Below are positions 651 through 38,861 of a stretch of 60,424 nt of DNA, piece after piece. The first letter of the stretch is position 1. Each line of letters opens with the position of its first letter. Position numbers and translations under genes: made by a program. The notes under the pieces were generated by a model. It made no database searches and had not been told where the DNA came from. It saw nothing but the letters and a program-made list of their open reading frames with translations. Location of the stretch: the IMG/VR virus record IMGVR_UViG_3300030329_003758, positions 1 to 60,424 of that record. One strand, 5' to 3'. The stretch is from a virus. Lineage: Duplodnaviria > Caudoviricetes.

Positions 651-718
651 GCCGTGATGTTGTTGCAGAGTATAAAGCTTATCGGCAGGCTCAACAGGCT
701 GCCCAGGGGGCTCTATAT
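1..718. repeat. Left copy of imperfect terminal duplication (allelic to 59605-60424); marks the circularisation point
   Basis: 1-98 is identical to 59605-59702 and 642-718 is identical to 60348-60424 (77 bp). Internal identical blocks: 291-357 = 59916-59982 and 407-469 = 60059-60121. Sequence between the blocks is diverged. Confidence 0.95.
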
Positions 719-3700: not shown

Positions 3701-6700
3701 ATTGCCCATCAAGAAGGATATCGACATTCCATCTCCTGGTCGCTAGATAAGGCAAGAGCAAACACACTTAAATCAGAACAGAAAGCTAGAGCATTGATGG
3801 GTGAATGGGGCTATCAAGAGCCTCGGTGGATCCTTTCTGGTGGTGATTATGCTACTCCAACAGACCGAGCTTTTCGGTCTGAAGACTACCTTAGAGGTGT
3901 CGTAAAATATAATCCGAGACAATCCAAGCAGTACTCTATTGAGAACCCAGCCCAACCAGGACTCTTGGAAGCGGGTCTTCGTCCTGCAGAAGCTCGAATC
4001 CAAGCGAAAGGAATGGTTAGTGATGATATTCAAAGGTTCTCTAAGGAAGTCGCCGAGGATACCCAAGATCTAGATGTGTATGTAGTCTTTCGAACTGAGG
4101 ACTATATTAAAGAGAATTTCTCTACTGAAGTTTGGGAGATTGCTAAGCGAGATCAGTCGATTTCTCTCGATCTCCAACCTGGAGATACCAGTAAGTTGTA
4201 CCCAGTCTATCTAGGTAGACTAGAAACTGATGTTGTTGGCCAGGCAGTACGTAATCCAACAAGATCATCCTGGGCAGATAAGGTCGGTCAGTCATCAAGA
4301 GCCGATGATGCTCGATGGGCACCAATCAATCCAATTCGGGATGCGGAAGATTCACGGAAAGTTACGCAGTGGAAGCTTGCAGAGGTAGAAGATCAACCAA
4401 CACTTGGTCTAGTTCCAACTTCAAAAGCTCGGTCTTATACTTCTGACTTTGTATTCGGTGGGAGATTCCAGGGAACAAACAGTCTTCCTTCTCCAAATAA
4501 GAATATCTACGGACGTACCTTTGATCCTCGAACTAAAGAGGGGGCTCTCCCTCAATGGCGTAATCCTTTAACTCGGGAGTGGGAGAGCCCGACAACACAA
4601 GGGCTAAAGGAAGCCGGTCAACTAAAGCAGTATGAGCGGTGGATCGATATTAGAATTGAGATTGAGAGGAATGTAGAAGAGGGACTGAAGTTGGCCCATG
4701 CGAAGGCATCTCATGAGGCTAATGAGTGGTTTAGTGTTAGAGGGAGCTTTGCTAGGAAGTTCCAAGCTGTTTCTGATGAACTCGATATTCTTGAGAAAGA
4801 TCTGAAACAGGTGAATGGTGAGCTGGCAAAGGTAGTTTCGCAGATAGAACCTTCTGTCATCGCTTTGAATGGCCTCTCATTGAAGAGGGGAGACATCAAT
4901 CGCCGAATAGCCGAAGTACTAGAGAAGATTAAAATCACTTCTAAACCTCTCAGGGGGAAAGGAAAGAAGCGGTTCAAGAGGGGAACAGTCAGAGGCGATA
5001 GAATTCGATCAGAGCTGACTGGGTATCAATCAGATTTGGCGAGTTTGCGTGGTGATCTTGCAGTTGTGGAAGCTTCGCAAGCCGAGATCTTTGCAAATCG
5101 TAACTTCAGAAACCTAGAGTCTAAAAGACGGGAGCTTACTGCTAGGCAAATCGAATTGGGGGCTCGACAAACTATCGCTATGGACGAGATGTTAAAGGTC
5201 GATGAGCTATTTGCTTCACTCCCTCGGGCGACCCCAATAACTACAGTTAAGGGTGCTGCTGAGTTAGAGATGAGTATTGGAAAGGGTCTTCGTGCGACTG
5301 AAAGTAGAACTCTTCAACAACTCAGAGCCCAGCAGAAACACCGCCGTAGATACGAGCATGCTGCGAGAAAGTCATCTCCTAAGAAAAGAGAAGCAGCTTT
5401 TAGGGCAGCTGAGGAAGCAGCTAATGCATCAAAGCAAAGACTTTATTCAATGCTTGATGCGTATAAAGAGGTAGCTGAGGATCTGAGAAAAGGCCTAGAA
5501 GCTGTTGACAGTATGCCAAAAGATACGGGGCGGTTTGTTAATATCCTCGAAGAGTCTGGGGCTATCTCTGAGACGAAGAGCCCCGATCCAGTAACTTGGT
5601 TTAGGTCTAAGATCTTAAGGTCTATTACAGCCTATAATGATGATGGAAGCCGCGCTGTCGATGTAGATAAGCTTATGGACTATCTCCGAAATAGTTGGGG
5701 AGATCGTGCTGTTGACTACATTACTGAGAGCATCATTGGAGGACCAAAACAGCTTCATCAGGCAAAGATCGATGGGAGGACGCTTCAAGCTTCTGAGCTT
5801 AAGAAGATGTCTGATACCTATGAGCAGACTGTAGAGAAGATCAAAAAAGTTAATGAAGAGATGGTTGAGTGGAGAAGGTCTGATGAGTATCGGACATCGA
5901 CTGAAGCTGAAAAGAGAAGACAGCTAGATCTTTATGTTGAGAAGCTAACCGATCTTAACCAGATCAAGGCTCAAAATGAGGTTGTACAAGCTACCGTTAT
6001 TGGGACTCGTGGTGGTCAAGCTGGTGACGTTCTTCATAGGATCAAAGCGGCGCAAGAAAAGGGGATCAAAACAGTCGATCTTAGTCTAGAAGAGATTGAG
6101 AATTTTCAGCATATCAATAATGGCCTTCGGCATGCCTACCGAGAAACTCATGAGGCTCGACGTGGACTCTCATACTTGGAAGCCATGGATCAAGCAGACC
6201 AAGATGTATTTGGCTCTCTGATTCTTCGATCTACTTACTACCTAAAACCCCTAAAAGAGCGGAATAAACTAAACTTTTATATCTTTCCCAGTATTCTCCA
6301 AAAAGCTCTCTACCATAAGGATGTAGTTTCATATATTAGCTACATCGCTAAGAGATATATGAGAATCTTTAATCCGATTTCCGCTCGGATTGGAGAAGTT
6401 AGCAAGGATGTAGAGAACGTCTTTAGAGCGTCTGAAAATCTTCGAGATCATGTACATACTGAAATGTACGAGTACCTCCGAATGATGGATAGAGCCCACA
6501 AGGGGATGTCTCCATCCGTTCGGGAGGAAATCTACTTCGACGGTGTTGTCGAGATGATGTCGAAAACAGAGGCTGACGAGCCTCTATCGATTGCGTATAA
6601 GTCACCCTTAAAGTCTGCTAAGGTTTGGATGCACTCTGGAGGGGCGGTCCATCCACAAGCAAGGCAGAGTGTTGTAAATAATCTATCTCTCCAAGATGAT

Positions 6701-9619
6701 CTCAGCATCATTAAGGAGCAGATGGAACTCCTTAGATTTATTGAGACAGAAGCCAAGAGACTCAATCCAGTGGGGAATGTTGAGTCACTCAAAAATTCTA
6801 TTACTAAAGCTTTCGAAACTGGCAAGTTTAAGAACATGCCAAATGGAAAATCGGTTCTTCAGTATATTATCAATCAGATAGATCTTTGGAAGACACCACC
6901 CCAAGGGCAAAAGAGGAGTATTGATACACTTATTGGGTCATACTCAGAAGGAACTCGTGGTATCCGCGACATATCGAAAATCAAGGCAACGGGAGATGAA
7001 GCGATTAAGCAGATGGATGATATCCTCCGGGAATCAGAACCCATTACGCTAAACCGACTTTTGGCTACCAGATGGAACATGGGAGATTATGATAATTGGT
7101 TTGCCCGTGCGAAGAATTTTCGTGAATCCAACATCGTTCTATCTTGGTCCCGCGCCTTTATCCCTCATGGGCACGCCCCCAGCCCATCAAGAGCGGCTTA
7201 CTATTACGCTAGAACCTTGCGCCTCTTCCATGATCCCAGATCAACCGACTTCAAGTGGCTGCTCGAACAGGTGCAGAAGATGCACATGCGAGACTTTGGG
7301 CCTGAGACAAACAAGACTCGGGCTTACGCTATTGCAGCTCTCGCTTCTATCGATGGCATGGTTATCTTCCGTACAAATCGACTAATGGAAAGAGCTATTG
7401 GAGGGTTCCTAACACCAGATCAGGTAAGGTCAGGGAATGCTTGGCTCCAGCAGACAGAGAATTCAATTAAAGGTTGGGATGCAGCGCTCGACGCCAACAT
7501 CCGAGCCGGTCGCCCCATTAAACAAGACCGGATTAGAACAGGCGATAAGAAGAAGCTGACAGACTATGTTCTTTCTGGGATGGACGAGAGCGGAAGAGGC
7601 TTCTGGACATCAAGACCAATCTCTGAAGCTGCTGATGAAGTAACAGAGCGTATTGTCAAAGAGACTGCAATGCAGTACTCCAAAGCGAGGACTCCTGAAG
7701 AGGCTTTTCGGACAGGGGCTCAATGGAGTGTTGGCCGATTGTGGCGAACTTCAATTGTTACCGGTCTAGTAGTCCCCCAGCCGCGTTACTTTTACAACAA
7801 CTACTGGGGTGATTTCTCCCAGATTTGGCTCACAGAAGGCCTATATAGAGCTGGGAAGATTAACTTCCAGTTGATGACAGATATTCCTTGGTGGAGTGAT
7901 AAGCTCGATAATTACCAAAGGCGGATCACTGAGTGGGTACATAAGAAAAACCCGAACGCCCCAGTCTTGGGATCGACTTTTAATGCTCTAATGAACCCCT
8001 GGGCTAATAGGGTGTGGAGAGGGGAGAAAGGGTATTTGAGGCTACCTGATGGGCGTTTGAAGTCGTTCGATTCGATTCGAATGGATCTCGTCAATAGCGG
8101 AGTCTTAGATACCCAGGCTAATCATGATCTTCTTTCTTCTATGGCTAGAGTTACTCCACACTCCTGGAAAGAAGTTCCTGGGATTGGATCCCCTTTCCGT
8201 AAATCGGAAGAGTATCTAGATAAGTATTACCGAGGCCAAGCTCCTGGAATTACTGGGGAGATGAAAGCTCTAGGGGCTATGGGTGTCACTGGGTTGGGTA
8301 GAGGGCTCCAAGCAACGACTGATATAGCTACAGATTGGCGGCAAAATATTAGTTGGTGGGCCACCTATGTACAACAACGTCAGCGTGGCAACTTTTATAT
8401 GGAGATGCTTCGCCTGGGCTATACCGAAAAAGAAGCTATTCGCCGCACCTTCAATGCTCTGTATGATTGGAGAAATGGAATCACAGAGTATGAGATCAAA
8501 TGGCTTGCTAAATACGTTCCATTCTATCGATTTTGGCGGCTCGCCCTAAGCCAGATGGGCAGAGAGTTGTCCCAACCTCTTCTTCGTCCCAGCGAAAAGA
8601 TGGTTGACCTGCATATGCTTGGAATGAAAGCCCGAATTCCAGGTGAGTATGTCGGCCAGAGTGGCTTGGGGCGTGTTCGTCAGCAGCACGTATTTAGAGA
8701 GATGCTTCCCTACTGGACAGAGCCAGAGATGTGGGAAGAACTGGCACAAGATGAACAGCAGCTTATCCGCTATGCTCATGCTCTCCGCCCTGAGTGGCTC
8801 TATTCTCGCCCAACCTGGGGCTGGAAGGTTCTCCCTGAAGACCAGAGAAAGTTCTATATGGAGAATCGAGGTAGGGCGTTGGGCTATAGCGTTAATGCTC
8901 TTGGGCCATTTACAGCTCTCGACACAGCTGAATTTTTTATGTCGACCAATAAGGCATGGATGGGGCTCCTACTAAAGGCGATGCCGGGCGACACCATGAA
9001 CTCTCACATAGCCCCTGATTTTGAGGAGAATTTCTTTCGGAACTCTTTGGATATGCTGATGCCCATTCAGAAAGAGATGGCTCAGCAGTTTCTTATGGAC
9101 AATGGGTTTGATGCTGGTGGCCACCATAAAGGGCCAGTTACTCGTCTCCGACCGGGAGAAGCGACTATGGCGAACAGCCCAACTTTTGGTATTGAAGCTT
9201 GGTTGGATCCAGATCTAGGGACTCCTGTTGCGCAGAGAGGAGCGGTAGCCCTCTATAGAATGCTCCCTGTTGTTGGGACAGAACTCCCTGGGCTAATGAA
9301 TGCAGCTTGGTCGGATAACTATAGGATGCAGAAGTTCACCCGAGACTACCTAAACAGCGCTAAAACTCCAGATTCGAAGGATTTCATCCGGGGCTTGCAA
9401 TTTGCTTTCGGTCGGCTTGGAGGATTTGCTCAACAATATCCGATTGATCCACACCAAAGACTTCGGCATATGGCTGCTGATAAGCAGAAAGCTTTCAATA
9501 AAGCTTCGCAGAAGATTGGTAGACCAGATCTCATCTCAGATCAGCCTTATCCATATCCTTACAACTGGAGACTGGATCAGCCTATGGAGGAACAGGAGCC
9601 TGAGGATGAAGATAAGTAG
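647..9619 (+). CDS. Giant (2990 aa) internal virion / ejection protein, large-polyvalent-protein-like
   Basis: Uninterrupted 9 kb ORF placed last in the ejection-gene series. ATG at 647 has an AGGGGT RBS and an ATGA overlap. C-terminal segments PRYFYNNYWGD and EAIRRTFNALYDW..ITEYE..LAKYVPFYRFW resemble the conserved LPD38-like C-terminus of podoviral large internal proteins. Central coiled-coil-like stretch. Confidence 0.75.
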   Translation: MSRDVVAEYKAYRQAQQAAQGALYEQQKADEESNPDRTTTQARYQAVQEIGGPITIPEDSGYTPEQHRVLTGSVYDPAYPKMDEDLDIDRNAGIRRLYQKLGHIPADFRWGKADDIDWEDFPDDVQPDSELQPSVKRRTQPQYGAIRWRPEDEQRVQRGVAAGELVAERFEVAPAKGYQWATSPQAGQPLPKVERSRDLEVERGVARPEMFDYEPQGVDIPTLLSKTFDWNQIGNQIPVLQEAFDQFTLSRNQDALRALNESRALAKKPAQIAPIDFEYKFDDMGRGWYESKDPEIQEALDDPIIGQQLEGSPGIPGRSWQYLKDINDEVDRLNALGFHSAARRESYERFIPVISEIGWDLLELSIWTLDALPIPSRIDPFPILQQIMPTDQERESFKNLRLKTWDNLTPEAKEKAATDPEYFIRMMYNQREADIRFEVSSGHITEYLEQLVNSMPTEFPVSDPVSWAEKLGPGEPYEEDPAKIVEGRDRGIEINWRPGAGLDIAEYRRGRVDHLMRNWFNQYLEFDDAGTPDDTRDDKTFLVWNGERIPVKNVTWKHMMAQLSEESQWQVHADVSRRLAAETSFLIHQGALKAQELAEKTAWREGEGFKAVGTGFSFFDDDYMRTTNEIAKGLNPYNDDAPWIKDIPLLGKHLEGPYRVARAATARRPGMFLKYYPSAQAWRPGRDGPTQWEIRHRTGLDWLMGWVGTTWEAGMLEPMIDKLRQNESDAGDLVYRYMRSLTDSPYEYTLVDDEGKEESYRLLAMDTPNHEWFNDIVDGQIAITDERRLAEHLGDIPWGAERESTLRKVLRGIEPKGIHRPFVGYRQFNKDTGKIELITKKEVLDDFVKVLEETYNATLGPEMSPEDRVRQVESIRQHKFLAHEMGAVWAELADALEVDQETKNAMVIGGSIVTGFGQEFANPIDPILAGMRLTGKGLKYAKRTKQWKRETRPAYLDQVSDELRKELDDELAKIKDHVYTNREDRIKDEAVIFDMINTRAHERGMKIDHVAQLIVEARIAHQEGYRHSISWSLDKARANTLKSEQKARALMGEWGYQEPRWILSGGDYATPTDRAFRSEDYLRGVVKYNPRQSKQYSIENPAQPGLLEAGLRPAEARIQAKGMVSDDIQRFSKEVAEDTQDLDVYVVFRTEDYIKENFSTEVWEIAKRDQSISLDLQPGDTSKLYPVYLGRLETDVVGQAVRNPTRSSWADKVGQSSRADDARWAPINPIRDAEDSRKVTQWKLAEVEDQPTLGLVPTSKARSYTSDFVFGGRFQGTNSLPSPNKNIYGRTFDPRTKEGALPQWRNPLTREWESPTTQGLKEAGQLKQYERWIDIRIEIERNVEEGLKLAHAKASHEANEWFSVRGSFARKFQAVSDELDILEKDLKQVNGELAKVVSQIEPSVIALNGLSLKRGDINRRIAEVLEKIKITSKPLRGKGKKRFKRGTVRGDRIRSELTGYQSDLASLRGDLAVVEASQAEIFANRNFRNLESKRRELTARQIELGARQTIAMDEMLKVDELFASLPRATPITTVKGAAELEMSIGKGLRATESRTLQQLRAQQKHRRRYEHAARKSSPKKREAAFRAAEEAANASKQRLYSMLDAYKEVAEDLRKGLEAVDSMPKDTGRFVNILEESGAISETKSPDPVTWFRSKILRSITAYNDDGSRAVDVDKLMDYLRNSWGDRAVDYITESIIGGPKQLHQAKIDGRTLQASELKKMSDTYEQTVEKIKKVNEEMVEWRRSDEYRTSTEAEKRRQLDLYVEKLTDLNQIKAQNEVVQATVIGTRGGQAGDVLHRIKAAQEKGIKTVDLSLEEIENFQHINNGLRHAYRETHEARRGLSYLEAMDQADQDVFGSLILRSTYYLKPLKERNKLNFYIFPSILQKALYHKDVVSYISYIAKRYMRIFNPISARIGEVSKDVENVFRASENLRDHVHTEMYEYLRMMDRAHKGMSPSVREEIYFDGVVEMMSKTEADEPLSIAYKSPLKSAKVWMHSGGAVHPQARQSVVNNLSLQDDLSIIKEQMELLRFIETEAKRLNPVGNVESLKNSITKAFETGKFKNMPNGKSVLQYIINQIDLWKTPPQGQKRSIDTLIGSYSEGTRGIRDISKIKATGDEAIKQMDDILRESEPITLNRLLATRWNMGDYDNWFARAKNFRESNIVLSWSRAFIPHGHAPSPSRAAYYYARTLRLFHDPRSTDFKWLLEQVQKMHMRDFGPETNKTRAYAIAALASIDGMVIFRTNRLMERAIGGFLTPDQVRSGNAWLQQTENSIKGWDAALDANIRAGRPIKQDRIRTGDKKKLTDYVLSGMDESGRGFWTSRPISEAADEVTERIVKETAMQYSKARTPEEAFRTGAQWSVGRLWRTSIVTGLVVPQPRYFYNNYWGDFSQIWLTEGLYRAGKINFQLMTDIPWWSDKLDNYQRRITEWVHKKNPNAPVLGSTFNALMNPWANRVWRGEKGYLRLPDGRLKSFDSIRMDLVNSGVLDTQANHDLLSSMARVTPHSWKEVPGIGSPFRKSEEYLDKYYRGQAPGITGEMKALGAMGVTGLGRGLQATTDIATDWRQNISWWATYVQQRQRGNFYMEMLRLGYTEKEAIRRTFNALYDWRNGITEYEIKWLAKYVPFYRFWRLALSQMGRELSQPLLRPSEKMVDLHMLGMKARIPGEYVGQSGLGRVRQQHVFREMLPYWTEPEMWEELAQDEQQLIRYAHALRPEWLYSRPTWGWKVLPEDQRKFYMENRGRALGYSVNALGPFTALDTAEFFMSTNKAWMGLLLKAMPGDTMNSHIAPDFEENFFRNSLDMLMPIQKEMAQQFLMDNGFDAGGHHKGPVTRLRPGEATMANSPTFGIEAWLDPDLGTPVAQRGAVALYRMLPVVGTELPGLMNAAWSDNYRMQKFTRDYLNSAKTPDSKDFIRGLQFAFGRLGGFAQQYPIDPHQRLRHMAADKQKAFNKASQKIGRPDLISDQPYPYPYNWRLDQPMEEQEPEDEDK

Positions 9620-15344: not shown

Positions 15345-16742
15345 TTATCCCATTGGGTTTAGTGTTTCTTGTTTAGCTATCTCTTCATCAACTTCTAGGA
15401 ATACAGGGATGGGATCCTCCTGAAACTCAAGATCAGGACCGATCTGCACATACTCCCACTTAGCCCTCTGCTTGCCCTTGGGGCGTTGCGTCGACATAAT
15501 CACCACCTGGGCAGGACAGTCATCAAGCGCTGCGAGAGTGCGGTAGAGCGTCTTGGGATCCCACATCCGGTCATCCAGAATGACGACAGATGGGACGCCA
15601 GGACGGGTCAAAGCCGCTGCCATGGCTCCGAGCACCCTTGCCTCTGTGCTGCCTGACAGGGCAATATGGAGCCCATTGGAGCGCTTCAGCGCAGGCTGGA
15701 AAATACCAGATGTGTTGATTGTAAACTCATCACCATCTGGGAGATAGTCGTTTACCCGATTGATGTAGCCACGTAGGTAAGGAGCAACCAGATTTTTCAT
15801 GGCTGCTTCGAGAGACTTCTCAAGCAAGTCAAACTCTTCTGACAGATCATCAGAAGAGATCTTCTGTTGTCGAGTCTCAGAGGCTACCTTGTAGAGAGAT
15901 TGTGTTGCTAGCATCTCGGTAAGTTTATCAGCAATCTTTGCAGAGCCAAACTTCTCAATCCCGATTAGCTCTTCTTTATCTCCCAAGGCCTGAACCTCAG
16001 TAGCCAGTAGTCCTCGCAAGTCTGCCTTCTCTTTATACATGCGTTTGAACTCTTCATATTTCAAAGCCCGGAATAGGGATTTCCAAGTCTCGTAGATGTC
16101 TTCGCTAGGTACATCCTGAGCACCTTGAAGCTCTCTAGTCACGTCAGTCAAAGCTTTAGACTTTGCCCGGTACTCCCGCTTGAGCTTCCCAGCTTTGTCC
16201 AACATCTCGACTACTTGGTCAGGAGTCAAAGAACCATCATGCGCAGAAGGAAGCGCAGCATTGAAAGCTTCCTCACTTGGCATCCGATTGGATTTAGGGA
16301 AGGCATCCCTCAACTCTTTTTTATCTAAAGCCTCGGCCAGGTTTCGAAAGAAAAATTTATATGCTGTGAGCGGCGACCCCATGAGCGCCTCTTTTAGCTC
16401 TGATACGGGGGCAACATAGCCACTGTAGCCCGTTCTCTTAGCCCGCTTACCTGGGCTGACTTCCCATCGGGCAGTGGAACCATCCGATAGTTCGACCTCA
16501 GCAAAGACCACTTCCTCATTCTCAGGGCATAGAGCGGAAAGCTGAGCACCAGTCTTCACTGTCTTAGGTCGCATGAACAGACCACTGACACTACCGGTAA
16601 GTGCAAGCTGCAGGGCTTCAGCTACCGTGCTCTTGCCACACTCATTCGGACCAATCAGCAGAGTCTTACCTCCGATCTGTGTTGTTCTAGGCTGCCCATC
16701 AGGACTCTTTATATTTGTAATGACTCTTACGATCTTCATCAT
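15345..16742 (-). CDS. Rad50/SbcC-like ABC-type ATPase (465 aa)
   Basis: Walker A GPNECGKST near the N-terminus, helical middle, signature LSGSTE, Walker B VVILDD. Confidence 0.8.
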   Translation of the reverse strand: MMKIVRVITNIKSPDGQPRTTQIGGKTLLIGPNECGKSTVAEALQLALTGSVSGLFMRPKTVKTGAQLSALCPENEEVVFAEVELSDGSTARWEVSPGKRAKRTGYSGYVAPVSELKEALMGSPLTAYKFFFRNLAEALDKKELRDAFPKSNRMPSEEAFNAALPSAHDGSLTPDQVVEMLDKAGKLKREYRAKSKALTDVTRELQGAQDVPSEDIYETWKSLFRALKYEEFKRMYKEKADLRGLLATEVQALGDKEELIGIEKFGSAKIADKLTEMLATQSLYKVASETRQQKISSDDLSEEFDLLEKSLEAAMKNLVAPYLRGYINRVNDYLPDGDEFTINTSGIFQPALKRSNGLHIALSGSTEARVLGAMAAALTRPGVPSVVILDDRMWDPKTLYRTLAALDDCPAQVVIMSTQRPKGKQRAKWEYVQIGPDLEFQEDPIPVFLEVDEEIAKQETLNPMG

Positions 16743-19267
16743 GTCTCCAACCAGTTAGTGCCGATCTCCGCTTCGGCTGTGTAATCAAGCTTATGGTTTG
16801 TCTTTCGACGGCGGTTCATTGCAGACTGGAGAATCTTTACAGCCTCCTCTGCATCATCCTCATGCACCTCAAAAAGAAGAGAGTCATGACATTGGTTTAC
16901 CAAGCCAGTCTTCTTGTTAAAGTTGAAAGGGAGGGCACCCCTGGTCGGCTCCAACATCGTGCCATCGATAGAATTAGTTGACCAACCAGGGATACCCAGA
17001 ACTAGTTCCAACATGGACTCGTGCACAATAGATGCACCACCAGATTGGATGGGATGATTTACAAGCTCATTCAGCTTTTCTTCATCCTTGAAGTCACGGC
17101 GTCGGTGCCACAAAGAATCATCGATGTAGCCCTGACGACGGTACAGTTGTTGAATCTTTCGCCACCACTTGGGGATCTCAGGGACTGCACGCTTCAGCCC
17201 ATTGACCACATCACGTACATCTCGGTGGGAAAGGTGTGCGTAGATTAGTGCGCCATCGTCATCCTCTACACTCACCACCTGCTGATGGATGGTGGGGATA
17301 CTCGCAGCGTACTGCCATGCATAGAAGACGTTCTTGGTAATACCGCGAGTAGTCTTGAAGACACCCTTGCCCTTATCAGCCCTGTTCTCAGGAGCACCAT
17401 CGAGTTCCCAGATGCTCTTACCATAGACAATCTCCATGTTCTCATTGTGAGGGTCGAGCTTGTCGTTAATGATTTTTAGGAGCCTCTCAGCATTAGCCTC
17501 CTCTGCCAACAAACGTAGCTCAAGCTGATCCATGTCAGCCCCAACGAACAAATGCCCCTCTTCAGGTATAAAGATGTCCCGCAGAAATGCTGGAATATTC
17601 TGCGCATTGGGCTCACTTGAAGAATATCTACCCGTGGCTGGCAATCTGTTGTAGGCTGGGTGAATCCGCCCATCGCTCATGATCAGCCTTTCCTTCATGG
17701 GCTTGATGTAGGTTCCAAGCAACTTGCTATACCTGCGAACCATCCGAACAGCCTGAACAAGCTCGCGCTGTTCCTCCTCCAGATTGTGGTGGGTGATCAT
17801 TGCCCGGAGAGTCTCATCATCCGTACTTGGGTCACCTGTCTTCTCGTTGTACTTCTCTGGAGTTAGCTTCCAGTTAGAGTAGAGAAGACTCCGCAGTTGG
17901 AGAGTAGAGTTAGCGTTGAACTCAGGACTGACAACCTGTGCACAGATCTTCTTGTTTTCTTCTAGCTTCCTCAAGAATTCAGACTCATGAAAAAAGAGTC
18001 GATCCTTGTCTACACGCATACCAAGGGTCTGCATGCCTACACCAACAGACTGTAGCTCATGCTCTCTCTGTAGAAGATGCCACTGACTTCTACCCCGAAC
18101 CACACGGGCAAGGGGTGCGGCTACCCTAGCGGTCGCGCAAGCATCCTTGGCGCAGTAGGTCCAAAGCTCTCTGTCATCCCGAGCATTTAGTGCAGTATGG
18201 TTTGCCTTCCATGCTTCTACAAAGTCTGTATAGACAGACGTGACGAAGCCCAGGTTGTGGGGCATTTCATTATCAGCCAACAGGTGTAGTAATAGAGTGT
18301 CGGCTGAGAGTTTGGGGGTGATGCCAATGGAGTTTTCAATGACAAGCCTGTCATATTGTCCAGCATTGTGCCCAATGATGGGGGGCTTACCCTCTTCTAG
18401 GAACCTAGCTAGCTCATCCCGAATCTTAATCTCTGTCTGTGGATCGAAGAACGAGGACTTGCCATCAATAGATAAGAACGGAATGACGATGCTACGGGTC
18501 AGGTTGGAGAGAGCTACACACCTGAGATTAGCGCTGATTGGATTACGAGAGTCAGTCTCAACGTCATAGGCAATCGGGTCACCAACTTCCTGGAAGTTTT
18601 TTAGGGCCGCTTTTAGAGCTGAGATTGACAAGATAAAATCTATCTCTGGATCCTTCCATGTTAGCTCGCCCTTGAAGAAGCGAAAGGCCCTAGCTATGTC
18701 GCCTTGAAAGACGCTCCTCCACTTAGGAGAGCGCAGCACAAATGCTGGGTGGACTGTGTAGGCTACCTTGACCTTTCCCCATGGCTTCTCGATTACCTCA
18801 CACGCCCCGCGTGTGCCCATGATGGATGTATAGGAACCCCGGATAGCAGTAGCAGCCGTCGAGCCCAGGCATATTATCTGAGTGAAGCCTTCAATCTCAT
18901 CATCAACACGCGGCTTACAGCACTCGTGTGGAGTGGGGTGCTCTGGCTTACCCTCTTTTCTCCTTTTTTTATTTGTCCTAGAGAGTCTCGTCATGAATGA
19001 ATCGAGTCTGTTCTGCGGAGGTCGGCAGGCCAGCACGTTATTTATCTGGCATTCATCTCGCTTGACACCGCAGTAATCTAAGGCTGCCTGAAGCTCCTGA
19101 CCTGATGGCCCAACGAAGGGTCTACCCTCTGCAACCTCATGACCACCAGGAGCCTCACCAATAATAAGGATCCGATCTTCAGGGTGGTGTTCTGTAAGGA
19201 CAGGAGCAAACTCCTCCTTACTCTTCCAAAGAGCCCCAAGGGGGCAGATGTCACATTTCGCTTTCAT
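16739..19267 (-). CDS. polA: Family A DNA polymerase with N-terminal family-4 uracil-DNA glycosylase domain and 3'-5' exonuclease (SPO1-type architecture)
   Basis: UDG: CDICPL, GEAPG..E...GRPFVGPSG, CRPP, HPAFVLR. Exonuclease: YDVETD, GHN...YD, YCAKD. Polymerase: TGRYSSSEPNAQNIP, motif A ADMDQLELRLLA, motif B RGITKNVFYAWQY, motif C CHDS. Confidence 0.95.
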   Translation of the reverse strand: MKAKCDICPLGALWKSKEEFAPVLTEHHPEDRILIIGEAPGGHEVAEGRPFVGPSGQELQAALDYCGVKRDECQINNVLACRPPQNRLDSFMTRLSRTNKKRRKEGKPEHPTPHECCKPRVDDEIEGFTQIICLGSTAATAIRGSYTSIMGTRGACEVIEKPWGKVKVAYTVHPAFVLRSPKWRSVFQGDIARAFRFFKGELTWKDPEIDFILSISALKAALKNFQEVGDPIAYDVETDSRNPISANLRCVALSNLTRSIVIPFLSIDGKSSFFDPQTEIKIRDELARFLEEGKPPIIGHNAGQYDRLVIENSIGITPKLSADTLLLHLLADNEMPHNLGFVTSVYTDFVEAWKANHTALNARDDRELWTYCAKDACATARVAAPLARVVRGRSQWHLLQREHELQSVGVGMQTLGMRVDKDRLFFHESEFLRKLEENKKICAQVVSPEFNANSTLQLRSLLYSNWKLTPEKYNEKTGDPSTDDETLRAMITHHNLEEEQRELVQAVRMVRRYSKLLGTYIKPMKERLIMSDGRIHPAYNRLPATGRYSSSEPNAQNIPAFLRDIFIPEEGHLFVGADMDQLELRLLAEEANAERLLKIINDKLDPHNENMEIVYGKSIWELDGAPENRADKGKGVFKTTRGITKNVFYAWQYAASIPTIHQQVVSVEDDDGALIYAHLSHRDVRDVVNGLKRAVPEIPKWWRKIQQLYRRQGYIDDSLWHRRRDFKDEEKLNELVNHPIQSGGASIVHESMLELVLGIPGWSTNSIDGTMLEPTRGALPFNFNKKTGLVNQCHDSLLFEVHEDDAEEAVKILQSAMNRRRKTNHKLDYTAEAEIGTNWLET

Positions 19268-34862: not shown

Positions 34863-34928
34863 TTTACTTTCCTTTGTTTGGTTTGTTTAGTTGTGAAGTG
34901 GGGTCAGAAGAAACTAACCCCACAGTCC

Positions 34929-34957
34929 AATGTGCTCTGTTTGACGTCACTTGTCAA
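34929..34957 (-). promoter_or_regulatory. Putative promoter of the AAA/VWA operon, with TGACGTCA palindrome in the spacer
   Basis: TTGACA-17 bp-CACATT; spacer contains GTGACGTCA, also present at 37096-37107. Confidence 0.55.
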
Positions 34958-34970
34958 ATAATTCGAGTTT

Positions 34971-35049
34971 TCCCAGTGATTTCAAGTAGTTACAGCGGCG
35001 ACCAAAAACTGTCCGCGGGGCGCGTTTCGCTAAGTACCTGAAATCACTG
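34971..35049. repeat. Inverted pair of 19-bp IHF-site-like motifs
   Basis: CAGTGATTTCAAGTAGTTA (34974-34992) and TAAGTACCTGAAATCACTG (35031-35049), 17/19 complementary. Confidence 0.8.
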
Positions 35050-35138
35050 CATTTTTCGGCCCGACCCTCTGCGAGAAGCCCCAATATAAGATTTCAACCC
35101 TAAACAGGGACTATTCCCTCGCAATACTACAACCATAG

Positions 35139-35190
35139 ATTAGCGCTGATACATAGCCGCCAATATTAGCGCTGATATATTGCCGCCAAT
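35139..35190. repeat. 26-bp tandem repeat, two copies
   Basis: ATTAGCGCTGATACATAGCCGCCAAT and ATTAGCGCTGATATATTGCCGCCAAT (24/26). Confidence 0.85.
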
Positions 35191-35280
35191 GGTTGAGGCA
35201 TGCCCCGTGCTGCCCATGCCCGGGACCGAGCCCATGTGCTGCGCATGCCCCGGATCGCCCCCATATCCGCGGGAGGAAAA

Positions 35281-35379
35281 GGGCGTTACCACACCAGGAG
35301 TCGGCAGCCCCCCCTTAACCTCACCTACTTGATGATAGGTCCGTCTCAGGGCGTTACCACCCCCGAGGGGCGTTACCAC
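35281..35379. repeat. Three direct copies of the 12-mer GGGCGTTACCAC
   Basis: Exact copies at 35281, 35349 and 35368. Confidence 0.85.
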
Positions 35380-35473
35380 CTCCTAGCCCTCCCTCTGCCC
35401 TCGTACCTTCCGCACCCACCTTGGGCTAAGAAGGGGAGGGAGGCCACCTCTCGGTGACCCCCCGTCTCCTCTC

Positions 35474-35674
35474 TCAGTCGTCATCCACTAAGTAATCAAT
35501 CATCCGCATGAGTCTCTCTTCTTTGTACCGACTGACTTCTGCATCGATTTTTATCTCGATCTCCTTACGGTGTCTGTCCTTTGGGTCGCATCCACACATC
35601 GTTCCACCAGCGGCATAGTGTCCGCTAGTGACTCGTGTGCAGAGATTACAAATAGGGCAGTATCCATTGGGCAT
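35474..35674 (-). CDS. Small Cys-rich (zinc-finger-like) early protein (66 aa)
   Basis: Start revised to ATG 35674 (AAGGAGG RBS); CPICNLC...H...CGC. Confidence 0.7.
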   Translation of the reverse strand: MPNGYCPICNLCTRVTSGHYAAGGTMCGCDPKDRHRKEIEIKIDAEVSRYKEERLMRMIDYLVDDD

Positions 35675-35744
35675 GATGCCCTCCTTTCTTGGGTTGTGTG
35701 GGGAGCGGAGCATCATTGCCCCGCCCCCCGGTTGTTGAAGTTAG

Positions 35745-36032
35745 CTACGCTTCATTGACGACAAGCTTGGTACACGCAGTGAGCAGCCTCTTAAAGTCTG
35801 CCTTGCGCCTCTCTTCCAGCCTCTTCAGTTTCCATTCGTAGCGGGTAGGCATGCGAGTTGTTGGATACTCACCTTTATCTACCATCTCAGAAGAGGCTAG
35901 GATCTCGACGGGTTCATCATTCTCCCGCCTCTGCATAGCCTTCTTTCTTGCACTGTCTCTCAGTGCAGCAAGAAGGTCCATTGCCAAGCCAGCGGCTTCC
36001 TCCGTCAAGTTCTCCATACTAGGGTCGATCAT
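35745..36032 (-). CDS. Hypothetical early protein (95 aa)
   Basis: TGGAGTAAGCTATG start context, identical to that of 36130-36312. Confidence 0.75.
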   Translation of the reverse strand: MIDPSMENLTEEAAGLAMDLLAALRDSARKKAMQRRENDEPVEILASSEMVDKGEYPTTRMPTRYEWKLKRLEERRKADFKRLLTACTKLVVNEA

Positions 36033-36119
36033 AGCTTACTCCAGTGAGGCTATTGCCTCGTTTATCCCGTGCGTTATTGCAGGGAAGATGGAGCGGGGGA
36101 GGGTGCTGTCCCCTCCCCC
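36033..36119 (-). ncRNA. Structured leader element, copy A
   Basis: GGGGGAGGG-GACAGCA-CCCTCCCCC; CTCCA; TCCC-TGC-AATAAC-GCA-C-GGGA; TAAAC; GAGGC-AATA-GCCTC; AC-TGGAG. Confidence 0.7.
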
Positions 36120-36129
36120 TTGGTTGCAT

Positions 36130-36312
36130 CTATCGATGCGGGTGGGAGTTGAGATAGATTGAGGCTGTAACGCTCAACTGTCCCAACTTGTGGTTAGTGA
36201 AGCACTCACTACACACCTTATTGCCCCGGATTAGCATCCAGGTGTTGGGTGGGTAAGGGTGCTTGCATGGACTGTCTAAGTCCTTCTTAGTTACGGGTTT
36301 GAAATAACCCAT
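36130..36312 (-). CDS. Small zinc-finger-like early protein (60 aa)
   Basis: GGAG RBS; CKH...VCSEC. Confidence 0.7.
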   Translation of the reverse strand: MGYFKPVTKKDLDSPCKHPYPPNTWMLIRGNKVCSECFTNHKLGQLSVTASIYLNSHPHR

Positions 36313-36403
36313 AGCTTACTCCAAATGGGGCTTAGCCCCGGCTTATCCCTGCGGTATTGCAAGGAAGGCAAGGAGAGGGGGGCAGGTATTGTCCCTGCCC
36401 CCC
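36313..36403 (-). ncRNA. Structured leader element, copy B
   Basis: GGGGGGCAGG-GACAATA-CCTGCCCCCC; CTCC; TCCTTGC-AATACC-GCAGGGA; TAAGCC; GGGGC-TAA-GCCCC; ATT-TGGAG. Confidence 0.7.
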
Positions 36404-36410
36404 AGTGCTT

Positions 36411-36482
36411 CTAAAGGATCATCAGTGCCAGTAGCAGTATGATCCAGAAGAGCACTCCACGGGGTGAGGTGCTATTCAGCAT
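36411..36482 (-). CDS. 23-aa hydrophobic micro-peptide (not in ORF track)
   Basis: MLNSTSPRGVLFWIILLLALMIL*; GGAGG lies 9 nt upstream; start overlaps the end of the 156-aa gene. Confidence 0.6.
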   Translation of the reverse strand: MLNSTSPRGVLFWIILLLALMIL

Positions 36483-36942
36483 CGGATGCGTCCTCCGCAT
36501 CCTCCTCTGACGTCTCAACAACGTCAGCCTCACTCTCGGATGACTCGTCGCCACCCTCTTGCTCTGCCTTTACTTCCGCATCGTATTCAGCTAGCATGGC
36601 TGCCTTTCTCGCGGCAGCCTCAGCCGCTAGCTGTCTATCGATTGCAGCCTCGTAAGATGTCCGGTCAAAGCGAGCTTCTGGGAACTCGCCAGAGTCTTTC
36701 ACCTTCTTGATTGCAGTCTGGAAGTTAGGCGCAAGCTCAACCTCTCCGTTTGCTCCGATTAGAAGCTTGACTTTCCCCGTAGGGTTCCCGTCCTTGTCTT
36801 CCTCCTGGATGCAGGGGATAAGGCCTTGGGTTTCGGAGTACTTAGTACCCTTCTTCTCGCCTCCTTTACCCTTCTGCTTGCGGGTGTGGATTGTGCATGC
36901 GCTGAGCGCCGTGATTGTCCAAGTGGCTTTTGATTGAGCCAT
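36472..36942 (-). CDS. First early gene, hypothetical (156 aa, basic N-terminus and acidic tail)
   Basis: AAGGAGGT RBS; long acidic C-terminus. Confidence 0.8.
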   Translation of the reverse strand: MAQSKATWTITALSACTIHTRKQKGKGGEKKGTKYSETQGLIPCIQEEDKDGNPTGKVKLLIGANGEVELAPNFQTAIKKVKDSGEFPEARFDRTSYEAAIDRQLAAEAAARKAAMLAEYDAEVKAEQEGGDESSESEADVVETSEEDAEDASDAE

Positions 36943-37011
36943 CTGAACCTCCTTGTGGCCCTTTCGGGCCGTTTATTCCCGAGCCGACATTGGCCGGGAA
37001 AGCCTTAGGAG
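36943..37011 (-). ncRNA. Structured leader element, copy C
   Basis: CTCCT; TTCCCG-GCC-AATGTC-GGC-T-CGGGAA; TAAAC; GGCCC-GAAA-GGGCC; AC-AAGGAGG. Confidence 0.65.
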
Positions 37012-37095
37012 TTTTGTCCACCATCGTATTGAGATTTGAAAGATCAGTGCGGTTTGACACCGGCTCAGCCTCTCGGCTTGAACTGCATTTAACCA

Positions 37096-37107
37096 TGTGA
37101 CGTCACA
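37096..37107. promoter_or_regulatory. Perfect 12-bp palindrome (putative operator) in the presumed early promoter region
   Basis: TGTGACGTCACA. Confidence 0.55.
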
Positions 37108-37517
37108 GTGCAACAAAATAGTTTGAATCTCAAGCTAAAAACACCCGAAAATGGGCCATTTTTACCAAGCTGAGACACCCATTTTTCTGCCCATAATCGG
37201 CCATTCAAGCGAGTATGGGGGGATATGACCCTCTAAAAGTGGTCTATTAGGAGAAGGCACGAAAAAAGTTTGAATTAGAGGGTAGGGTGACGCCAAATAC
37301 CAGCCCCCTCACGGGGCATAGGGGCTACCCTTTCCTTTCCACGGGACAAGCTATGCGCGGGCTTTCCTTTACCTCAGTCCCCAGCACAGCCCTACCAGCA
37401 CAGCCCCATGTCCCATGTCACGCCACGAAAAACCGCCACCACGCGGAAGCATCCCCCTTTTTTCGCCCCCCCAGGCTTTCCTGGGGAGTCTCTTTCGAAT
37501 ACAATTAGTTTTGCAAA

Positions 37518-38435
37518 ATGACTGACGCCACATGCACGAAGAAAGGTGGATACACGCATTGGCTGTTGCACTCGGCTGAAATCCCGAGGAAGCAGTTCAA
37601 TCAGAGTAATCTCAGCTTCTACCACCTAGCGCTAGCTTTCGGATTCTGTACTCCGTACATGCAGGATCAGAAATCATGGCGAATGGTGTCAATTCCCCAG
37701 TTTCAGGCCGCAATGCGCAATCTGAGGTGGGCGATTTGGAGGGATCGCAGGATTCTGCACGGGGTCTACAGTAAGGCCATGTTCGTGGCACCAGAGAAGT
37801 GGCCTAAAGATGTTAGGGAATCATTTAGATTAGTAGATCCGCCCACGCCCTATGAGGTCGCATGCGTGCTATTGGTTGAGCCCCATGCGAATTTCTGGTC
37901 CCTGCACGTAGGTGCGCCCAAATATGTCCAGTGTGCGCTGTCTACCCTGAAGTGGTGGCTGATGGGAATGCCCGAGGAGGCTTTATCGACTGTCCTGGGC
38001 ATAGGGGGGAGCGCGTTACATGAGATCCTGGCTATTGCTGTCAAACACGCTATGGACAAGCCGAAGTTCGCAATCTGGGCGCTCGGTGGAAGCCTGATTC
38101 CGGTGTGTACGAACAGAACCATGCTCCAGGTCGCGGAATCTTTCGCGCTGGGAAAGTCTCTCCCGTCGAACTCTAAGGGCAGCGGCGCAACGCAACAGGC
38201 GCGAACAGCACAAAACCGTCTTTTCAATCACCCATATGTACAAGCTCAGCTTAAATCTGGTGTACGTATCGGACCATTGTGTAGGCCAATCTTTCTTCCG
38301 GGCATCGTTTGGGATTCTTCGGCGGATAAAAAACAATGGGAAGTCTCAGAAGATCGTGGAGCTAAACAGATTCTAAAGGTTCGGACGCAAATTTCCAAGT
38401 ATCCCGAACAACACCCTGAATGGTTAGATCTTTGA
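37518..38435 (+). CDS. Hypothetical protein (305 aa), possible HTH transcription regulator
   Basis: First gene of the plus-strand arm; WWLMGMPEEALSTVLGIGGSALHEILAIA resembles a sigma-region-4-type HTH. Start uncertain. Confidence 0.6.
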   Translation: MTDATCTKKGGYTHWLLHSAEIPRKQFNQSNLSFYHLALAFGFCTPYMQDQKSWRMVSIPQFQAAMRNLRWAIWRDRRILHGVYSKAMFVAPEKWPKDVRESFRLVDPPTPYEVACVLLVEPHANFWSLHVGAPKYVQCALSTLKWWLMGMPEEALSTVLGIGGSALHEILAIAVKHAMDKPKFAIWALGGSLIPVCTNRTMLQVAESFALGKSLPSNSKGSGATQQARTAQNRLFNHPYVQAQLKSGVRIGPLCRPIFLPGIVWDSSADKKQWEVSEDRGAKQILKVRTQISKYPEQHPEWLDL

Positions 38436-38525
38436 GTACCCCTTCGGGTCAAAAAGGGAGGCGCGGAGGGAGTCAACTGTCTTATTAGACACAACTGCAG
38501 GGGAAACATCCGTTATACTGGACGC

Positions 38526-38861
38526 ATGGACAAAAAAGAAGATCTTGTGCCCATCGAGGAATCCGCTGCGCTAACTCGCGTTTCTACCACACTTCAGAAG
38601 AAGAAGGTACGCGAGTTGAATGACATAACGGACTTATGCGCTGACGCGATGACCGCAATTGTCAAAAAAGAAATGTCTACTGGTGTTGCCAGAGAACTCC
38701 GCCAGTGGGCTGAACTTATGTATACTTGCGTTCAGGCTCAACGTGTTTCTGGTGAAGGTGGTGGTGTGAACTTCGTTACTCAGCTAATTCAGATGAACGG
38801 CGCGACAGAAGAAGCCCGTGAGCGCGTCGAGGAAGTTTTCGACATTAAGGATGTTGGATGA
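38526..38861 (+). CDS. Small helical protein, candidate terminase small subunit
   Basis: Size, helical composition and position upstream of terL; TATACT lies 6 nt before the ATG. Function inferred only. Confidence 0.5.
   Translation: MDKKEDLVPIEESAALTRVSTTLQKKKVRELNDITDLCADAMTAIVKKEMSTGVARELRQWAELMYTCVQAQRVSGEGGGVNFVTQLIQMNGATEEARERVEEVFDIKDVG

What the first reader, a model, noticed from the sequence alone, without database searches (positions are those of the whole stretch)
36033..37011. Triplicated structured 5' leader with covarying stems, a conserved hexaloop and anti-SD pairing: candidate new cis-regulatory RNA
Three early genes (starts 36032, 36312, 36942) are each preceded on the minus strand by the same architecture: CTCC(A/T), then P2, TAA(A/G)C, P3, 2-3 nt and a GGAG SD. 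P2 stems differ but pair (TCCC.TGC/GCA.C.GGGA; TCCTTGC/GCAGGGA; TTCCCG.GCC/GGC.T.CGGGAA) and always close a 6-nt loop C-AATRNC-G (AATAAC, AATACC, AATGTC). P3 is a 5-bp stem of different sequence each time (GAGGC/GCCTC, GGGGC/GCCCC, GGCCC/GGGCC). The upstream CTCC can pair with the SD (CTCCA/TGGAG, CTCC/GGAG, CTCCT/AGGAG), closing a three-way junction that would hide the RBS. Copies A and B add a 5' hairpin with a 7-nt GACARYA loop and share TGGAGTAAGCTATG. Compensatory changes with conserved loop and junction bases are the hallmark of a functional RNA. I cannot match it to a riboswitch, ribozyme or leader that I know. Inference: a protein- or ligand-responsive translational switch co-regulating the earliest genes, perhaps read by the basic N-terminus of the 156-aa first gene product.
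Basis: partly seen in the sequence, partly recalled or inferred. Interest (0 to 1): 0.85.

Follow-up and report, generated by a model that had tools for sequence, protein, structure and literature searches.

The report
Triplicated structured leader before phage early genes
The first three early genes of an uncultured phage each carry the same folded RNA leader that probably hides the ribosome-binding site; it is a real but narrowly distributed regulatory module whose trigger is unknown.

Summary
Three minus-strand leaders (ATGs at 36942, 36312, 36032) fold into one architecture. A conserved CUCC pairs with the GGAG Shine-Dalgarno. This closes a three-way junction holding P2 (loop C-AAURNC-G) and a 5-bp hairpin P3. 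Copies A and B also have an upstream G/C hairpin, P1.

All five known copies (three here, two in relative L003) give this as their minimum-energy fold (z -3.5 to -6.4). A covariance model built only from copy C and its orthologue retrieves A and B' as the best foreign hits. P2 and P3 show compensatory changes (7 of 19 pairs). The anti-SD helix never varies, so covariation cannot test it, and its predicted probability depends on context (0.15-0.97).

There is no Rfam match. None of 10 related phage records carries the element.

My best reading (0.4) is a factor-responsive translational operator that occludes the SD and travels with early-gene cassettes: copy A plus its gene is missing in L003. 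Rivals are a processing and stabiliser site, a passive PeSL-like cassette, a DNA-level element, and a riboswitch. The proposed reader, the first gene's product, is untested.

Verdict: a new variant of a known kind, of moderate interest.

The parts
36943..37013 (-). Leader copy C, in the 5' UTR of the 156-aa first early gene. Parts: anti-SD CUCCU 37011-37007, P2 37000-36976, J2/3 UAAAC, P3 36970-36957, SD AGGAG 36953-36949.
   Evidence: Fold z -3.47. It was a seed of model R1. It is 87.3% identical to C' in L003, against 50% for the intergenic region upstream, and conservation starts about 5 nt 5' of CUCC. The P2 changes between C and C' are all compensated.
36313..36376 (-). Leader copy B, before the 60-aa gene. 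Parts: CUCC 36375-36372, P2 36365-36346 (contains one U.G pair), J2/3 UAAGC(C), P3 36339-36327, SD 36322-36319.
   Evidence: Fold z -3.78 when folded with P1. R1 scores it 12.9 bits, E 0.51 in 72.5 kb and E 0.07 in 9.9 kb. R2 scores it 70.2 bits.
36377..36403 (-). P1 hairpin of copy B: a 10-bp G/C stem with loop GACAAUA and no U-run. It starts 7 nt after the stop codon of a 23-aa ORF.
   Evidence: Pairing probability 1.0 in every context tested. Between B and B' there are two compensated stem changes, G-C to A-U and C-G to U-A.
36033..36094 (-). Leader copy A, before the 95-aa gene. Parts: CUCCA 36093-36089, P2 36085-36065 (bulged C), UAAAC, P3 36059-36046, SD UGGAG 36043-36039.
   Evidence: Fold z -6.38 when folded with P1. 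R1 scores it 25.5 bits, E 1.4e-4. Copy A and its gene are absent from L003.
36095..36119 (-). P1 hairpin of copy A: GGGGGAGGG / CCCUCCCCC with loop GACAGCA.
   Evidence: The same stem sequence with a different loop precedes the second early gene of relative L040.
35700..35729 (-). Hairpin before the fourth early gene (ATG 35674). It has a 12-bp stem with two G.U pairs and a loop C-AAUGAU-G. There is no P3 and no anti-SD.
   Evidence: It folds better on the sense strand than on the antisense strand (-26.7 against -21.2 kcal/mol).
36472..36942 (-). First early gene, 156 aa, with a basic N-terminus and an acidic C-terminus.
   Evidence: ORF listed. The orthologue in L003 is 67% identical. Three clusters were found in 5.8 billion proteins.
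36130..36312 (-). Second early gene, 60 aa, with Cys/His motifs.
35745..36032 (-). Third early gene, 95 aa. It is present only in the window lineage.

Best explanation
Each of the first three early cistrons is preceded by a modular RNA leader of about 65-70 nt that acts on translation initiation.

The RNA folds into a three-way junction with three helices:
- A short closing helix pairs a conserved CUCC with the GGAG Shine-Dalgarno.
- P2 is a hairpin whose loop (C-AAURNC-G), base (UCCC/GGGA) and 3' flank (UAAAC, UAAGC or UACAC) are conserved in sequence.
- P3 is a 5-bp clamp of free sequence that ends 3-4 nt before the SD.

The folded junction lowers ribosome access. A trans-acting factor that recognises the P2 loop and J2/3 most likely sets the state of all three genes together, as a translational operator. 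This factor is probably a protein, from the phage or the host.

The G/C hairpin P1 in front of copies B and A insulates and stabilises the upstream cistron. The whole module moves with small early genes as a cassette.

Shown: the fold, the covariation of P2, P3 and P1, the conservation, and the cassette indel.
Inferred: SD occlusion in vivo, the existence of a factor, and the direction of regulation.
For: - The same MFE and centroid architecture, with the SD paired, appears in 5 of 5 copies. The z-scores run from -3.5 to -6.4.
- RNAalifold predicts it de novo on an unfitted alignment: 17 pairs, 7 of them with changes on both sides.
- On the fitted alignment, 98.8% of 85 cells are paired and 7 of 19 pairs changed on both sides (P2 4, P3 3). 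Only 0-1 of 500 shuffles reach the observed values for the percentage of cells paired, for pairs and cells changed on both sides, and for the covariation score; for further pair types 8 of 500 do. Slid controls give 60% paired or less.
- Orthologue comparison: all P2 changes in C against C', and all P1 changes in B against B', keep the pairing.
- Leader C is 87.3% identical between lineages. Its gene is 71.8% identical and the upstream intergenic region 50.3%.
- The conserved block starts about 5 nt before CUCC.
- CUCC is an invariant island between linkers that vary in sequence and in length, 3-7 nt.
- P1, P2 and P3 keep a pairing probability of 0.94 or more in every context folded.
- The element sits directly on the SD and start codon of each gene, and only there.
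- Independent analogues exist in relatives. The first early gene of L033 and L034 has a different long hairpin that pairs the SD (z -4.9 and -4.0), with compensated inner-stem changes. L040 and L044 likewise pair the SD.
- Hairpins closing a C-AAUNNN-G loop lie just upstream of an SD-ATG in three further relatives: 5 of 6 hits, against a background of 3.4%.
Against: - The closing helix has no covariation: 4 pairs are invariant, and in the fifth one of three scored cells is unpaired. The SD must be conserved in any case.
- The probability of the closing helix falls to 0.15-0.38 in some larger contexts.
- Predicted SD pairing of 0.95 or more is not unique. It occurs at 8 of 54 crude starts in the window, including these three.
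- Across relatives, early-side genes are not more occluded than control-side genes: median 0.52 against 0.62, Mann-Whitney p 0.59.
- There are only five copies from two lineages. A and B are recent duplicates (77% identical), so the statistics rest on few independent events.
- No binding factor is identified and no transcript data exist.
- In one search the number of hairpin hits is itself near chance (6 against 3.1 +/- 1.7), and three of the five well-placed hits are duplicates in one genome.
Confidence: 0.4

Rival explanations
1. The element is a processing and stabiliser module. An endonuclease, from host or phage, cuts in the conserved single-stranded J2/3 (UAAAC), guided by P2. P1 and P2 then stay as 3' protective hairpins on the upstream mRNA. 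P3 becomes a 5'-terminal stabiliser of the downstream mRNA. Removal of the CUCC strand frees the SD, so translation is activated by processing.
For: - There is one element before every early cistron, including the first. This matches the five RNase III signals in the T7 early precursor (passages of PMC3867540).
- P1 has no U-run, so it is not an intrinsic terminator.
- J2/3 is the only conserved junction strand.
- This model gives every part a role.
Against: - The helices are short: P1 9-11 bp, P2 7-9 bp. The idealised RNase III substrate is 22 bp (PMC3867540).
- No nuclease gene was recognised near the element.
Confidence: 0.25
2. The element is a passive, cassette-borne structure like a PeSL. 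The repeats exist because new small early genes are inserted by recombination at existing leaders. The hairpins only insulate and stabilise cistrons and tune translation constitutively. No dedicated factor exists.
For: - Copy A plus the 95-aa gene is an indel relative to L003, with the junction at the G-run of the hairpin.
- P1 is a polyG/polyC stem-loop placed after the upstream stop codon, and an SD and ATG sit at the 3' end, as described for PeSLs (passages of PMC2839356).
- Relatives carry other repeated hairpin cassettes before early genes.
Against: - The P2 loop and J2/3 are conserved in sequence while the stems covary. This points to specific recognition.
- No sigma-70-like promoter lies in any copy.
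- The leaders are G+C-rich, not AT-rich (GC 0.52-0.57).
Confidence: 0.17
3. The element acts at the DNA level. It could be a promoter or operator, or an N4-type extruded hairpin promoter read by an injected RNA polymerase.
For: - The arms are inverted repeats, and sense and antisense fold about equally well: -46.4 against -44.5, -48.8 against -48.0, -31.8 against -30.1 kcal/mol.
- A 2993-aa ORF of unknown function lies next to the structural genes.
- Relatives repeat a TGTGC-N6-GCACA unit with constant arms.
Against: - No promoter-like site was found in the leaders.
- The giant ORF has no Pfam, PHROG or PDB match, and my regular-expression scans found no T7-like or two-barrel polymerase motifs. 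Those motifs were recalled from memory.
- The stems covary rather than keeping fixed half-sites.
- G.U pairs are present in B P2 and in the fourth hairpin.
- N4 geometry, as I recall it, would start the RNA inside the SD if P3 is taken as the promoter hairpin. With P2 as the hairpin the start would fall in J2/3, so geometry does not exclude that variant.
Confidence: 0.07
4. The element is a small-molecule riboswitch whose three-way junction binds a host metabolite.
For: It has three-way junction geometry with the expression platform on the SD, and it belongs to no known family.
Against: - J1/2 (3-7 nt) and J3/1 (2-4 nt) vary in length and sequence.
- P3 loops vary (AAUA, UAA, UUAG, GAAA), so there is no loop-loop contact.
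- The distribution is very narrow.
Confidence: 0.05

Closest known systems
PeSL (promoter-early stem-loop) cassettes of T4-type phages (PMC2839356 passages; PMC4122927 abstract)
   Same: Both are repeated intergenic modules before small early ORFans. Both have a polyG/polyC stem-loop after the upstream stop codon and an SD and ATG at the 3' end. In both, a module plus its gene differs between close relatives as an indel.
   Different: This element has no sigma-70-like promoter and is G+C-rich rather than AT-rich. It adds a covarying three-way junction closed on the SD. The phage is not T4-like: it has a family A DNA polymerase and no cultured relative above 27% identity.
Inhibitory leader helices of T4 genes e, soc, 49 and I-TevI (PMC3014915 passages)
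   Same: The SD is sequestered by an upstream complementary strand, which lowers 30S binding.
   Different: In T4, relief comes from late promoters inside the structure. No internal promoter is seen here. Here the helix closes a junction with two extra hairpins and is repeated on three genes.
Translational operators of T4: the gp43 hairpin with a conserved loop that overlaps the RBS, and the RegA regulon (PMC3014915 passages)
   Same: Like the gp43 operator, this element has a hairpin with a conserved loop next to the RBS. Like the RegA regulon, several early genes share one signal.
   Different: RegA sites are unstructured. The gp43 operator is a single autogenous site. The binder here is unknown. 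Only copy A's loop contains the UAAC of the T4 operator loop.
RNase III processing signals of the T7 early precursor (PMC3867540 passages)
   Same: There is one structured signal ahead of each early cistron, including the first.
   Different: T7 signals are long irregular hairpins of about two helical turns. Here the helices are 5-11 bp and form a junction.
Lambda nut boxB and HK022 put RNAs (recalled; not checked in any call)
   Same: These are small hairpins in early transcripts that are read by a factor or by RNA polymerase.
   Different: They occur once per operon and are not tied to an SD. Here there is one per gene, abutting the SD.

Membership tests
PeSL cassette | Stable G-run/C-run stem-loop in the intergenic space after the upstream stop codon | tested here: met
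   P1 of copies A and B, and of B'. Copy C has none.
PeSL cassette | Strong sigma-70-like -35/-10 promoter inside the cassette, with an AT-rich region upstream | tested here: not met
   The consensus scan finds no site in any leader. GC is 0.52-0.57.
PeSL cassette | Module plus ORFan gained or lost between close relatives | tested here: met
   Copy A plus the 95-aa gene is absent from L003. This is a single event.
T7-type RNase III signal | About 20-22 bp of irregular double helix | tested here: not met
   The longest helices are 9-11 bp, against 22 bp (PMC3867540).
T7-type RNase III signal | Cleavage by RNase III | not testable with these tools
SD-sequestering inhibitory leader (T4 e type) | SD or AUG lies inside a helix | tested here: inconclusive
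   The SD is paired in the MFE of 5 of 5 copies. The probability is 0.15-0.97 depending on context, and there is no covariation.
SD-sequestering inhibitory leader (T4 e type) | Promoter within the 5' strand that gives unstructured transcripts | tested here: not met
Protein-bound translational operator | Hairpin with conserved loop bases adjoining the RBS | tested here: met
   Loop C-AAURNC-G and J2/3 are conserved while the stems covary.
Protein-bound translational operator | Cognate repressor that binds the RNA | not testable with these tools
   The early proteins have no family hit. The model is of low confidence.
Any Rfam family (riboswitch, ribozyme, leader) | Score at or above the gathering threshold | tested here: not met
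   There are 0 hits in the window. With an E-value cutoff of 10 there are only weak chance hits of 7-19 bits.
N4-type hairpin promoter | Phage-encoded virion RNA polymerase | tested here: not met
   The 2993-aa ORF has no Pfam, PHROG or PDB match and lacks the recalled polymerase motifs. A fold-level test was not done.

The most novel reading that the evidence does not exclude
The three-way junction is a sensor, riboswitch-like or read by a host factor. It lets the phage gate translation of its very first genes on the physiological state of the cell it has just entered. The conserved P2 loop and J2/3 would form the sensing surface.
Probability: 0.07. Interest if true: 0.85.

Novelty: new variant of a known kind. 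Interest (0 to 1): 0.5.

Why it matters
If correct, this small and portable RNA module puts several unrelated early genes of a phage under one post-transcriptional control, and it is copied along when new early genes are acquired. That would link two phenomena so far described separately. One is the regulatory cassettes that drive gene shuffling in phages. The other is structured translational operators. The element is short enough (65-70 nt) for direct biochemical testing without knowing the host. Its distribution is narrow: two lineages and five copies. Its general importance is therefore limited unless the simpler AAU-loop hairpins of related phages prove to be the same system.

Tried and rejected
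**Searches for more copies**
- The gp1 protein and its alignment found only L003/L004 in viral contigs.
- In metagenome contigs they found three loci. L007 is identical to the window. L008 and L009 are the L003 type.
- The ATPase as a single protein, and as an alignment of 7 sequences, found only L003.
- A motif pattern found L006 (the same contig as L003) and one chance match inside a glycosyltransferase gene, L005.
- Model R2 found nothing at E of 1 or less in 10 of 10 related records. The positive control on the window's own genome gave 3 matches.
- R2 on 12 further loci gave a best score of 16.8 bits, E 0.022 (L044), without P3.

**Negative generalisation**
- SD occlusion is not a family-wide trait of early genes. 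That test used 12 of 17 loci. I left out L045, L047, L048, L049 and L051 because almost no early-side DNA is held for them.

**Hypotheses rejected or left open**
- Sigma-70 promoter: rejected.
- Phage RNA polymerase: not found.
- Strand asymmetry of folding does not discriminate for the leaders.
- The gp1 model is of low confidence (pLDDT 52.9). I ran no fold search, because it would be meaningless.
- The Atlas gave no lead.
- A search for the loop sequence of the T4 gp43 operator, recalled from memory, returned only unrelated papers among the 10 of 32 listed.
- A search for 'three-way junction' with phage early genes returned nothing relevant.
- A catalogue of 8,495 IMG/VR candidate structured RNAs exists (PMC10690425; passages read). 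Its alignments are in supplements that I could not open, so this motif may already be listed there under an unnamed number.
Full report
**Setting**

The window is a complete-looking 60,424-bp virus record (CheckV 100%). It has no tRNA. It has no cultured relative: the DNA polymerase is 27% identical or less to any phage record, and blastn finds no match.

Genes from 15.3 to 37.0 kb run on the minus strand and the rest on the plus strand. The minus-strand block begins at a 575-nt divergent intergenic region (36943-37517). It opens with four small genes of unknown family (156, 60, 95 and 66 aa). An ATPase and replication genes follow.

**Observation**

The only correction is that P3 ends 3-4 nt, not 2-3 nt, before GGAG.

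Folded alone, each leader gives the described three-way junction as both MFE and centroid. The z-scores are -6.38 (A with P1), -3.78 (B with P1) and -3.47 (C). Of 200 dinucleotide shuffles, 0, 0 and 1 fold as well.

**Relatives and the covariation test**

One other lineage carries the element. It is held as L003, L006, L008 and L009, which are 99.96% identical to each other. This lineage has orthologues of C and B (C' and B'), with z -5.15 and -4.84. It lacks copy A together with the 95-aa gene.

- Between C and C', the P2 stem differs at four places (two substitutions on the 5' arm; one substitution and one deletion on the 3' arm). The helix stays fully paired.
- Between B and B', the P1 stem has two compensated double changes.
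- A covariance model built from C and C' alone was run with filters off over window plus L006 (72,499 bases). It ranks A third (25.5 bits, E 1.4e-4) and B' fourth (23.4 bits, E 5.7e-4).
- B scores only 12.9 bits (E 0.51, rank 8), behind three unrelated hits.
- On the five-copy alignment fitted to the model, 98.8% of 85 cells pair and 7 of 19 pairs change on both sides (4 in P2, 3 in P3). Only 0-1 of 500 shuffles reach the observed values for cells paired, for pairs and cells changed on both sides, and for the covariation score; for further pair types 8 of 500 do. Sliding the partner by one column drops pairing to 60% or less.
- That alignment leans towards the structure, so I also ran RNAalifold on the plain MAFFT alignment. 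It predicts the same three helices, with 7 of 17 pairs compensated.

The sample is small: five copies from two lineages, and A and B are 77% identical duplicates.

**What is and is not supported in the structure**

P1, P2 and P3 are robust. Their pairing probability is 0.94 or more whether 100 nt or 400 nt of context is folded.

The closing anti-SD:SD helix is the weak point.
- Four of its pairs never vary, and in the fifth one of three scored cells is unpaired.
- Its probability ranges from 0.15 to 0.97 with context.

Three observations argue for it.
- CUCC is an invariant island between linkers that differ in length and sequence among paralogues.
- Between lineages, sequence conservation switches on about 5 nt upstream of CUCC. 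The intergenic region upstream is 50.3% identical, leader C is 87.3% identical, and the following gene 71.8%.
- Other relatives sequester the SD of their first early gene by unrelated structures.

A crude genome-internal control weakens the case. SD pairing of 0.95 or more is predicted at 8 of 54 starts that carry an SD motif. These include the three leaders and several probably miscalled starts.

**Family context**

The DNA polymerase finds 23 related IMG/VR loci at 56-94% identity. Model R2, built from the five copies, finds only those five in window plus L006; the next score is 12 bits.

R2 finds nothing at E of 1 or less in 10 of 10 related records, five of which are at least 96% complete. 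The positive control on the window's own genome gave three matches. Twelve more loci reached through the neighbouring 305-aa gene gave at best 16.8 bits. The junction element is therefore lineage-specific.

The relatives keep the synteny: a 305-aa gene lies divergent from an early operon. They have their own hairpin cassettes.
- **L033 and L034:** a long hairpin pairs the SD of the first gene (z -4.9 and -4.0), with compensated inner-stem differences. A G/C hairpin without a U-run follows, then a C/U-rich stretch and GGAG.
- **L040:** a P1 with the same stem as copy A (GGGGGAGGG / CCCUCCCCC), followed by GCCUUCCUUC and ACUGGAG, with no P2 or P3.
- **L044:** an anti-SD followed by two G/C hairpins and then the SD (z -5.45).
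- **L035, L036 and L037:** an intrinsic terminator, then UUUUACUGU, then a small hairpin, then the SD, repeated five or more times in L035.

I took a motif defined on the window: a stem of 4 bp or more closing a C-AAUNNN-G loop. I scanned the five relatives' early regions with it. It hits 6 times, and 5 of the hits lie directly upstream of an SD-ATG. The background is 3.4% of positions, giving a binomial probability of 2.8e-7. Two caveats apply. The hit count itself is near chance (3.1 +/- 1.7 in shuffles), and three of the five hits are duplicates in one genome.

The fourth early gene of the window also has such a loop, AAUGAU.

SD occlusion is not a general trait of early genes in the family. 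The median pairing is 0.52 on the early side and 0.62 on the control side (p 0.59).

**Interpretation**

The element sits on the SD and start codon of each of three consecutive genes and nowhere else. Its stems covary, while one loop, the base of P2 and one junction strand keep their sequence. This pattern fits an RNA read by a sequence-specific factor at the site of translation initiation. It fits a ligand pocket poorly, because two of the three junction strands vary.

I therefore favour a factor-responsive translational operator that works by SD occlusion (0.4).

A processing and stabiliser module explains the parts nearly as well (0.25). In that model the RNA is cut in J2/3, P1 and P2 serve as 3' stabilisers and P3 as a 5' stabiliser, and removing CUCC activates translation. 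It mirrors the layout of the five RNase III signals of the T7 early precursor (PMC3867540). However, the helices here are far shorter than an RNase III substrate.

A passive PeSL-like cassette (0.17) is supported by the indel of copy A plus its gene and by the polyG/polyC stem (PMC2839356). The defining promoter is absent, and this reading does not explain the conserved loop.

DNA-level readings (0.07) lack both a promoter and a polymerase. A riboswitch (0.05) is not excluded.

**Known and new**

There is no Rfam family match at gathering thresholds, and only chance-level hits at E up to 10. The mechanisms it resembles are all known:
- SD-sequestering leaders of T4 genes e, soc, 49 and I-TevI (PMC3014915).
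- The gp43 operator hairpin and the RegA regulon.
- PeSL cassettes.

Three things are new: the specific three-way junction, its repetition on the first three early genes, and its apparent mobility with gene cassettes. A published catalogue of candidate structured RNAs from IMG/VR (PMC10690425) may already contain it.

**Limits**

The host is unknown.

Noticed in passing
window 36411-36482 (-): A 23-aa ORF (MLNSTSPRGVLFWIILLLALMIL) starts inside the last codons of the 156-aa gene and ends 7 nt before P1 of copy B. It is conserved in L003, with 4 synonymous and 4 non-synonymous codon differences. It is probably a small membrane peptide.
   Followed up: partly
window 34863-35474 (-): This is a roughly 610-nt stretch between the fourth early gene and the ATPase with no convincing ORF. 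It is 79.6% identical to L003, and its 3' half is conserved far better than its 5' part, which is better than the flanking genes. It contains GGTGGTAACGCC three times (35282-35380) and, by eye in the alignment, two copies of TATCAGCGCTAAT. It may be an origin or regulatory region, or a non-coding RNA.
   Followed up: partly
window 37097-37106 and 34942-34950: The palindrome GTGACGTCA(C) occurs only at these two places (3 strand-matches, 0.27 expected). One lies within a TTGTTG-N18-TTAAAT promoter-like stretch upstream of leader C, which I read by eye (the consensus scan did not call it). The other lies just downstream of the promoter-like site 34985-34958. It is a possible operator shared by the early and middle promoters. 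L003 has one in its intergenic region as well.
   Followed up: partly
window 638-9619 (+): A 2993-aa ORF follows the structural genes. It has no Pfam, PHROG or PDB sequence match, and my scans found no polymerase motifs.
   Followed up: partly
window 16739-19267 (-): The family A DNA polymerase carries an N-terminal uracil-DNA-glycosylase-superfamily domain and a 3'-5' exonuclease domain.
   Followed up: no
L035 1600-4270; L037 (reverse strand) 1740-2521; L036 (reverse strand) 137-187: Relatives repeat a cassette before early genes: an intrinsic terminator with a U-run, then UUUUACUGU, then a small hairpin (often TGTGC-N6-GCACA), then an SD. The arms stay constant while the loops vary. This would also fit a DNA-binding palindrome.
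   Followed up: partly
L033 4238-4340; L034 4141-4243; L040 (reverse strand), ATG near 1233: The first early gene of these relatives has a long leader hairpin that pairs the SD. Inner-stem changes between L033 and L034 are compensated.
   Followed up: partly
L044 2205-2300 (-): This leader has two G/C hairpins with identical AUAGU loops, enclosed by a helix that pairs GUCCU with the SD (z -5.45).
   Followed up: no
window 37417-38861 against L003 2474-3917: The divergent 305-aa and 111-aa genes are 96% identical in DNA between the two lineages, while the adjoining early genes are about 72% identical. The conservation is mosaic, which suggests recombination at the intergenic region.
   Followed up: no
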